A stretch of DNA of 64,000 bases from Eledone cirrhosa (Eukaryota): positions 269,018,001 to 269,082,000 of the forward strand of contig OZ024741.1 in assembly GCA_964016885.1 (NCBI GenBank), written 5' to 3'. This document shows, one piece after another, positions 19,838 through 20,215 of this stretch (position 1 is its first letter; the number at the start of each line of letters is the position of its first letter). Below the pieces are notes generated by a model, which did not search any database, was not told the origin of the DNA, and saw only the letters and a list, made by a program, of their open reading frames with translations. The position numbers were made by a program, and so were the translations under genes.

Positions 19838-20215
19838 TATTAATAAAAGGAATTCCAACTTTGTCTGATTTACTCATTTGTTTACAATCCTTTAAAATTT
19901 ATAATGGTATTAGAATGAAATATTATGTTAGAATATTAAATGTTAAGTGTAAATAGAACAAGTACTTTCATGGTTTAGCAATCTTGAGGTTCATATTCTG
20001 TGGTGACAGTCAAGTTTGCAGTTTTTAACTGTTCAAACTTGACTGTTACAAGAGAATATGAACCTGAAGATTGCTAAACCATGAAAGTACTTGTTCTATT
20101 TACACTTAACATTTAATATTCTACCATACTATTTCATTCTAATACTATTATAAATTTTAAAGCATTGTAAATAAAACGAGTAAATCAGACAAAGTTCGAA
20201 TTCCTTTTATTAATA
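19838..20215. repeat. ~375 bp near-perfect palindrome (fold-back element, putative Penelope-like pLTR inversion)
   Basis: TAATAAAAGGAATT...AATTCCTTTTATTA; ~185-bp arms centred at ~20025. Confidence 0.9.
20055..20100 (+). ncRNA. Minimal type I hammerhead ribozyme motif
   Basis: AATATGAAC-CTGAAGA-TTGCTAAACCAT-GAAA-GTAC-TT-GTTCTATT; stem I AATA(T)GAAC/GTTCTATT, palindromic stem III AGTACT; the mirror copy at 19952-19997 (-) has CTCAAGA. Confidence 0.6.

What the first reader, a model, noticed from the sequence alone, without database searches (positions are those of the whole stretch)
19838..20215. Large palindrome carrying divergent minimal hammerhead ribozymes, isolated in (TA)n
Seen: ~185-bp inverted arms with almost no spacer. 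The right arm folds into a type I hammerhead (20055-20100) with a CUGAAGA core, a weak helix II, GAAA, a palindromic helix III (AGUACU), a CUU site and stem I AAUA(U)GAAC/GUUCUAUU. The left arm has the same motif with the core changed to CUCAAGA. Established: Penelope-like elements (PLEs) carry minimal hammerheads with palindromic helix III that work as dimers, and often leave inverted pLTRs. Inference: this is a non-coding PLE/retrozyme-like fold-back unit that inserts in TA microsatellites, and read-through transcription would give a long dsRNA hairpin.
Basis: partly seen in the sequence, partly recalled or inferred. Interest (0 to 1): 0.75.

Follow-up and report, generated by a model that had tools for sequence, protein, structure and literature searches.

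The report
Mirror-image Penelope insertion with hammerhead ribozymes
This mirror-image DNA is one decayed insertion of two head-to-head copies of the front end of a common jumping gene (a Penelope-like retrotransposon), a known footprint, but its thousands of sister copies suggest that each half was likely copied separately from the element's RNA and that the element's self-cutting RNA likely does cut in living cells.

Summary
The palindrome and hammerhead motif are real. They are not a separate retrozyme. Each arm is the ~200-nt leader (pLTR) of an autonomous RT + GIY-YIG Penelope-like element in this genome, with at least 5,445 motif copies. An inverted pLTR with a one-sided tail in (TA)n is a published PLE footprint. 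This copy is decayed: helix II is broken in both arms, one core is mutated, and there is no promoter. Read-through RNA is predicted to bury the ribozyme. The family is more informative. Of 100 arms, 51 start 31 nt below a TATA box. Of 45 head-to-head inserts, 38 pair a tailed with a tail-less arm. Some tail-less arms are the longer, which favours two separately primed cDNAs over fold-back. 33 junctions (29 insertions) begin exactly at the predicted hammerhead cut, against 2 and 4 at two control positions: likely a footprint of cleavage in vivo, which eight paper searches did not show in print. No RNA data. This scan reported the same readings before on other genomes.

The parts
19836..20032 (-). 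Left arm: tail-less copy of the PLE leader/pLTR, from the predicted RNA start (ACAGT) to the inner end point (+196)
   Evidence: blastn to full-length element L064, 90.4% over 198 nt; arm alignment
20034..20217 (+). Right arm: copy of the same leader, +13 to +196
   Evidence: 91.0% over 222 nt including the tail
20218..20255 (+).
   Evidence: outer ends in the family fall at +196 or +231 to +239
20055..20100 (+). Minimal type I hammerhead with intact core; helix II weakened by changes at 20075 and 20079; predicted cut after 20092 (CUU/G)
   Evidence: descriptor hit; family columns; energies
19952..19997 (-). Second hammerhead copy with G5>C at 19986 and the same helix II changes; predicted inactive
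   Evidence: G5 is an invariant core base (established knowledge)
20020..20033 (.). Head-to-head junction: the left arm reaches the predicted RNA start, the right arm joins at +13
   Evidence: sequence
13290..26576 (.). (TA)n-type microsatellite array that is the target; a target-site duplication cannot be resolved in it
   Evidence: TRF

Best explanation
The palindrome is one decayed insertion of an autonomous Penelope-like retrotransposon (RT, CX4CX2C linker, C-terminal GIY-YIG; likely Neptune type) into a (TA)n array, made of two head-to-head copies of the element's RNA leader that were likely reverse-transcribed separately from the two cut target strands and joined at their ends. SHOWN: the arm is the element's pLTR; outer ends fall at two fixed points (+196 and +234/239), both of which run into TA-like sequence; inner ends pile up at ACAGT; both arms of an insert come from the same subfamily. 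INFERRED: transcription starts at ACAGT from a CCAAT/CCAAT/TATA promoter in the upstream pLTR. The protein nicks both strands of (TA)n. One strand primes at the tail end and the other at +196, inside the RNA. Each cDNA runs to the RNA's 5' end (the start site, or the hammerhead cut in a minority), and the two cDNA 3' ends anneal or are joined, often through the near-palindrome ACAGT. The hammerhead is the ordinary PLE ribozyme, predicted to work only as a dimer or with protein help. In this copy it is predicted dead and has no role.
For: Arm directly 3' of the endonuclease ORF in 30 of 30 loci picked by the endonuclease. Direct pLTR-ORF-pLTR in 2 of 14 extended loci (L064, L068). Pfam RVT_1 E 5e-6 (26.7 bits, under the 29.6 cut-off) and GIY-YIG E 2e-6 (above the cut-off) in one frame. 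797 homologues; named ones include bivalve proteins. Two CCAAT boxes and a TATA box 31 nt above ACAGT (read). 51 of 100 arms picked by a 3' motif start at -5..+5. 45 of 111 insertions are head-to-head, 26 of them of the window's type; ends pair tail/tail-less 38, tail/tail 6, tail-less/tail-less 1 (p=2e-6 against independence). The tail-less arm reaches >20 nt further 5' in 6 of 38 (4 simple, 2 complex), which a fold-back copy of the tailed arm cannot do. The centre base of CAAC-W-GTTG along the tailed arm is A 56, T 44 of 100 listed, of 411 matches (hand count), as expected from a repaired T.T mismatch. Arms differ at <=1 of 5 subfamily markers in 78 of 80 rows against 41% of unrelated pairs. 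133 of 161 outer ends have (TA)4 within 40 nt. Exact starts at the predicted cut: 33 true junctions of 41 matches, against 2 of 9 at +62 and 4 of 5 at +141. Published anatomy matches (PMC8557442, PMC3846280, PMC11167929).
Against: No RNA data, so the start site and the cut are inferred from DNA ends alone. Only two control positions were tested for the cut-site peak. After scaling for anchor frequency, (TA)n-joined starts in +82..+112 are about as many as in +52..+82 (14 x 49/23 = about 30, against 31), so that coarser test shows a step at the cut rather than a lone peak. In the folded leader of L064, helix I is hardly populated (pair probability 0.001). The core is not clearly more conserved than its flanks within the family (2.1% against 3.0-3.3%). 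Helix II opens with U.U rather than the G-C that PMC4209133 calls highly conserved. Later recombination between arms could flip the centre base. The (TA)n count has no matched background. Neptune against Nematis was not resolved by a tree.
Confidence: 0.8

Rival explanations
1. Same PLE origin, but the inverted arm is a fold-back: the first cDNA snaps back on its own 3' end, is copied, and the endonuclease resolves the intermediate at +196 (self-priming as discussed in PMC3846280; endonuclease resolution of the tail as in PMC8557442).
For: Explains the same subfamily in both arms, the shared rare variants (19 shared; 12 of 30 pairs against 1 of 150 random pairs), both arms starting within 20 nt of each other in 24 of 38, and short extra inverted pieces at many junctions.
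Against: The tail-less arm is the longer in 6 of 38 inserts and in the window itself by 14 nt. The commonest centre would need a 1-nt hairpin loop, and its base is split 56:44 rather than fixed.
Confidence: 0.13
2. A non-autonomous retrozyme-like unit whose own RNA self-cleaves and is re-inserted.
For: Non-coding, hammerhead-bearing and very abundant. A 2026 preprint derives animal retrozymes from PLE pLTRs (10.64898/2026.07.22.740005).
Against: Retrozymes are direct tandem units; these copies are head-to-head, one per strand. The promoter part is absent from the window. Centres vary. The window's variant is unique in the genome. Read-through RNA buries the hammerhead (pair probability 1e-42).
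Confidence: 0.04
3. A MITE or fold-back DNA transposon with terminal inverted repeats and a TA target duplication.
For: Long inverted arms between TA repeats.
Against: Ends are asymmetric (+196 against +234), 51 of 111 insertions have no inverted piece, and the arm is the end of an RT-endonuclease element.
Confidence: 0.01
4. On the cut-site peak alone: the excess of 5' ends at +72 comes from RT stalling or template switching at the hammerhead structure, not from cleavage.
For: A shoulder of ends at +76..+82 and a raised level downstream. PMC11167929 found no RNA-seq reads at the cut site of an anole PLE, and found cleavage not needed for insertion in vitro.
Against: The ends are base-exact at the site predicted beforehand (33 against 2 and 4). 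In 14 of 17 two-armed cut-site inserts the unselected partner arm also starts at +70..+77, including a perfect centre at the cut (L223/224) and two arms both starting at +72 around a 290-bp spacer (L252).
Confidence: 0.25

Closest known systems
EN+ Penelope-like elements with an inverted 5'-truncated pLTR and a one-sided 30-40 bp tail (PMC8557442, text and Fig. 2 legend; Adineta Pen2a in PMC3846280, passages)
   Same: pLTR-ORF-pLTR parent, inverted copy head-to-head, 38-43 nt tail on one side, hammerhead in the pLTR, TATA plus initiator-like motif, microsatellite target
   Different: Here the commonest head-to-head product (26 of 45) has no ORF at all, and its inner ends are fixed at the predicted RNA start rather than randomly truncated
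Neptune/Nematis clades (PMC8557442)
   Same: DKG motif, RT, CX2-5CxxC linker (CNDSRCGTC), two Cys inside GIY-YIG, C-terminal endonuclease; (TA)n bias as hypothesised for Neptune
   Different: Clade not placed on a tree; no reference sequences were available as tool output
Minimal type I PLE hammerheads (PMC4209133; Lunse et al. known only through PMC6765202)
   Same: CUGANGA/GAAA core, short helix I, palindromic helix III suited to a dimer; PMC4209133 also notes pairs on opposite strands 100-700 bp apart
   Different: 3-bp helix II with a GNRA loop opened by U.U instead of the conserved G10.1-C11.1; CUU triplet
Anole Poseidon PAc in vitro (PMC11167929)
   Same: Two RT start sites that bound the tail; both target strands cut and extended; predicted dimer; protein-assisted hammerhead
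   Different: There the start sites lie in the ORF and are not homologous to the target; here they lie in the 5' leader and both run into TA-like sequence. There no trace of cleavage was seen in RNA-seq; here DNA ends pile up at the cut
Animal non-LTR retrozymes (10.64898/2026.07.22.740005)
   Same: Non-coding, pLTR-related, type I hammerhead
   Different: Retrozymes are direct tandem repeats with at least two hammerheads in cis; this is inverted, with one per strand

Membership tests
EN+ Penelope-like element (insertion of) | Single ORF with RT and C-terminal GIY-YIG linked to this sequence | tested here: met
   in the parent family, not in the window. The longest copies seen carry stops or frameshifts.
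EN+ Penelope-like element (insertion of) | Partial-tandem pLTRs | tested here: met
   L064 and L068, 2 of 14 extended loci
EN+ Penelope-like element (insertion of) | Inverted 5'-truncated copy and one-sided 30-40 bp tail | tested here: met
   Window tail 38 nt; 38 of 45 head-to-head inserts have one tail
EN+ Penelope-like element (insertion of) | Hammerhead in the pLTR | tested here: met
EN+ Penelope-like element (insertion of) | Variable target-site duplication | tested here: inconclusive
   Both window flanks are (TA)n; not examined in other copies
Neptune clade | CX2-5CxxC linker and CCHH endonuclease motif (shared with Nematis) | tested here: met
   Translations
Neptune clade | RT phylogeny with Neptune references | not tested
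   No named reference sequences among tool outputs; the supplements of PMC8557442 were not opened
Minimal type I hammerhead | Core CUGANGA / GAAA / UH with helices I and II | tested here: met
   Family and right arm pass my descriptor; the left arm fails (G5>C); no Rfam hit
Minimal type I hammerhead | Extra base after A9 and G10.1-C11.1 pair | tested here: not met
   U.U then UGC/GCA; a U.U opening also occurs in other hammerhead motifs found in flanks. This is a consensus trait in PMC4209133, not the catalytic core.
Minimal type I hammerhead | Compensatory changes in the helices | tested here: inconclusive
   The family is too young (helix columns about 97-99% constant); about ten other motif types in flanks keep the layout with different helices but were not aligned
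Minimal type I hammerhead | Self-cleavage (as a dimer) | not testable with these tools
   Indirect only: DNA ends at the cut site; constrained dimer energy -13.8 (family) against -1.0 kcal/mol (window)
Non-LTR retrozyme | Direct tandem units with two or more hammerheads on one strand | tested here: not met
MITE / fold-back DNA transposon | Symmetric TIR ends and a fixed unit | tested here: not met

The most novel reading that the evidence does not exclude
The thousands of short inserts of this family are a fossil 5'-end map of the PLE RNA. They record the transcription start and, base-exactly, the hammerhead cut, showing that a minimal PLE hammerhead cleaves in the germline and that cleaved RNA is used as template. 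They also show that PLE palindromes arise by twin priming from both target strands at the two tail-bounding sites.
Probability: 0.6. Interest if true: 0.7.

Novelty: new member of a known kind. Interest (0 to 1): 0.45.

Why it matters
The locus itself is ordinary transposon debris. The family matters because two questions are stated as open in print: what the hammerhead of endonuclease-bearing PLEs does (PMC8557442: 'still unclear'; PMC11167929: no reads at the cut site) and how the inverted structures form. Counting insertion ends in one large genome gives a cheap, repeatable readout for both, and names exact RNA ends to test.

Tried and rejected
Rfam on 17-23 kb returned only (TA)n-driven miRNA noise; on the element alone there was no hammerhead hit. 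The repeat finder was swamped by the microsatellite. No RNA holder was listed. Laying four contig runs of unrecorded kind showed only that most copies carry the family bases where the window differs; nothing on expression. A sequence look-up in earlier findings was empty. Splice acceptor as the cause of the 5' pile-up: rejected, because the commonest start keeps the AG (ACAGTTG). ADAR editing as the source of variants shared by both arms (lead): not seen; 1 A>G among 19 shared variants, and none among the window's four. An older subfamily with the window's helix II: not found; the pattern matches only the window's two arms. A fifth 'shared' change at +10 was dropped as an alignment artefact of the junction. 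Two different RNAs per palindrome: little support; 2 of 80 rows differ at 2 or more of 5 markers (one locus is listed twice). The (TA)n-anchored window counts (31, 14, 9 on the reverse strand) looked like a lone peak but weaken after anchor scaling. Monomer energies with helix III are meaningless (2-nt loop); helix I+II values come (-4.2 family, +2.2 window). Lunse et al. (PMC5785218) is not held.

Full report
1. Observation. The window holds a 420-bp island of ordinary sequence inside a 13.3-kb (TA)n-type array (13290-26576). It consists of two inverted arms (19836-20032 on the - strand, 20034-20217 on the + strand) that fold into one hairpin of -245.8 kcal/mol. The left copy has CTCAAGA. My descriptor found a hit in 1 of 2000 shuffles of the element. 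Rfam has no hammerhead hit at E<=10.

2. What the arm is. The window lies in a 3.0-Gb animal genome. I did not identify the species; named homologues of the element's protein include bivalve proteins, so a mollusc is my guess. The 38-nt hammerhead motif has 5,445 exact matches and a 37-nt motif near the arm's end has 6,316, with 0 for both reversed controls. One of the first 30 relatives (L028) had a GIY-YIG frame just upstream of the arm. Searching with that stretch gave 30 loci, and in 30 of 30 the arm follows the endonuclease in the same direction. Upstream lies an RT frame with the DKG motif and a CNDSRCGTC linker (Pfam RVT_1 E 5e-6, under its cut-off, and GIY-YIG E 2e-6, above it). Two of 14 extended loci (L064, L068) are pLTR-ORF-pLTR elements of about 4.2 kb with stops or frameshifts. 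In them the arm sits at the 3' end and again just before the ATG, followed by the tail and a short internal (TA)n run. This is a C-terminal-endonuclease PLE of Neptune or Nematis type by the linker (PMC8557442). The (TA)n bias points to Neptune; no tree was made. The window has no other piece of the element.

3. Anatomy of insertions. Numbering: +1 is the A of CAGTT in L064's 3' pLTR; hammerhead C3 is +43 and the predicted cut lies between +71 and +72. Among the first 100 arms on contig C1 picked only by the 3' motif, 5' ends fall as follows: 51 at -5..+5, 9 more within -20..+15, 8 at +66..+78, 13 in the other 132 nt up to +160, and 19 further upstream (some cut by the locus edge). The modal start is ACAGTTG. 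In full elements two CCAAT boxes and TATAAAAGG lie upstream, with the first T 31 nt before that A (read by hand). I infer that this is the transcription start and that the short arms are run-off copies of the RNA leader. An internal pLTR promoter is published for Drosophila Penelope, though TATA-less there (PMC2377424), and a TATA plus initiator-like motif for Adineta Pen2a (PMC3846280). Outer ends fall at +195..197 (42 of 100) or +231..239 (57 of 100), matching the two RT start sites that bound the tail in the anole element (PMC11167929). 133 of 161 outer ends have (TA)4 within 40 nt (no matched background).

4. How the palindrome forms. Of 111 insertions in the pooled C1 sample, 45 are head-to-head with two complete outer ends (26 of the window's type), 15 have a short inverted piece and 51 have none. 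Of the 45, 38 pair a tailed with a tail-less arm, 6 have two tails and 1 has none (22, 14 and 9 expected if independent, p=2e-6). Both arms come from one source: they differ at <=1 of 5 subfamily markers in 78 of 80 rows against 41% of unrelated pairs, and 12 of 30 pairs share rare variants against 1 of 150 random pairs. That fits fold-back and twin priming alike. Two results separate them. First, the tail-less arm reaches more than 20 nt further 5' in 6 of 38 inserts (4 simple, up to 1.7 kb longer; 8 the other way, 24 within 20 nt). It cannot then be a copy of the tailed cDNA, and the tailed arm cannot be a copy of it. The window is a mild case (14 nt). Second, a frequent centre, CAAC-W-GTTG (411 matches), would need a 1-nt hairpin loop, and its middle base along the tailed arm is A in 56 and T in 44 of the 100 listed (hand count; p=0.27 against even). 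Two cDNA ends ending ACTGT anneal with a central T.T mismatch, which would be repaired either way. Later recombination between arms could also flip this base, so this second point is weaker.

5. Does the hammerhead cut? A matched test asked for arms that begin exactly at one base with two upstream positions unlike the element. At +72 there were 41 matches. All 41 were inspected: 8 were point changes, deletions or small duplications in intact arms and were dropped, leaving 33 true junctions in 29 independent insertions. At +62 there were 9 matches, 2 true; at +141 there were 5, 4 true. Anchor frequencies are alike for +72 and +62 (54 and 48 of 79 arms). The +141 anchor was not measured, and its pattern is about 1.3-fold stricter by my estimate. 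In 14 of 17 two-armed inserts of this class the unselected partner arm also starts at +70..+77; L223/224 is a perfect palindrome centred on the cut, and L252 has two arms starting at +72 around a 290-bp spacer. In L214, L218 and L227 the +72 leader runs on into the ORF start. Against: only two control positions; (TA)n-joined starts are sparse upstream of the cut (3 of 27 listed loci in +52..+69, hand count) but after scaling about as many in +82..+112 as in +52..+82; helix I is hardly formed in the folded monomeric leader; the core is not clearly better conserved than its flanks. I put cleavage in vivo at about 0.7.

6. This copy. Both arms share four changes not seen in 79 sampled arms (+54, +58, +76, +80), and the helix II variant occurs nowhere else as an exact match. 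They come from a diverged source or from conversion between the arms; I cannot tell which. Each arm has six further changes of its own over the shared stretch. Helix I+II is +2.2 kcal/mol against -4.2 for the family, and a constrained dimer -1.0 against -13.8. The promoter part is absent. A read-through RNA would form the long hairpin and bury the ribozyme. Whether such RNA exists could not be tested.

7. Known and new. The structure is described in print: an inverted 5'-truncated copy, a 30-40 bp tail on one side, a hammerhead in the pLTR and microsatellite targets (PMC8557442), and opposite-strand hammerhead pairs (PMC4209133). I file it as a new member of a known kind. Eight paper searches (listings only, apart from the papers named) showed no report of PLE insertion ends at the hammerhead cut or of twin priming in PLEs. 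Subscription papers and supplements were not seen and may bear on this. Seen: PMC8557442 parts 1-2 of 10 and passages; PMC4209133 parts 1-2 of 4; PMC11167929 parts 1-2 of 4; 10.64898/2026.07.22.740005 part 1 of 5 and passages; PMC3846280, PMC6431247, PMC13282606, PMC6765202 passages; PMC2377424 abstract and discussion. Hammerhead numbering, TATA spacing and the term twin priming are recalled. This scan's own notes hold 603 findings with these words in at least 49 genomes, several with the same twin-priming and cut-site readings. I saw them after nearly all my tests (one search ran in the same turn); they are not independent support.

8. Verdict. A real, decayed PLE palindrome; not a retrozyme and not a DNA transposon. 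Interest 0.45, carried by the family-level evidence on ribozyme cleavage and palindrome formation.

Noticed in passing
window 33587-60434: 27-kb satellite of an 11-bp unit (CTAAATCTAAG, about 2,440 copies) with strong strand skew.
   Followed up: no
window 60705-63998 (+): Interrupted frames that read like gag, protease, RT and RNase H of a Ty3/Gypsy-like LTR retrotransposon (motif reading recalled, no family scan).
   Followed up: no
window 10464-10940 (+): Fragment that reads like the C-terminal part of an RTE-type LINE RT (recalled resemblance).
   Followed up: no
window 4469-4496 (+): A second CTGAAGA...GAAA motif followed by TATAC; it resembles other hammerhead families of this genome but failed the descriptor.
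   Followed up: partly
window 21541-21586 and 24867-24950: Two short non-repetitive islands inside the (TA)n array, possibly other small insertions.
   Followed up: no
window 32878-33105: Tandem repeat with a 47-48 bp unit, about 4.5 copies.
   Followed up: no
flanks of L002, L029, L039, L049, L067, L079, L091, L146, L147, L216, L234 and others: About ten other minimal type I hammerhead motif types in 0.84 Mb of fetched DNA, several with palindromic helix III (ACTAGT, ATGCAT, ATGATCAT, ATATATAT) and some with a U.U opening of helix II.
   Followed up: partly
leader positions +32..+37 (window 20053-20058): The stretch just 5' of helix I is far more variable among copies (21.7% for +30..+37) than the rest of the leader (about 3%), with several haplotypes per subfamily.
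   Followed up: partly
L210, L218, L222, L230: A leader starting at +72 is joined directly behind a piece of the element's body, as if RT jumped from the cut RNA end to another RNA fragment.
   Followed up: no
L061 (G000:C11:51250500-51259500): Head-to-head pair of two 3.5-kb copies of the element: the long end of the same size range.
   Followed up: partly
database proteins P0007, P0012, P0014, P0095, P0106, P0116: Close homologues of this PLE protein are labelled as bacterial gill-symbiont proteins, on short contigs; likely host DNA in symbiont assemblies.
   Followed up: no
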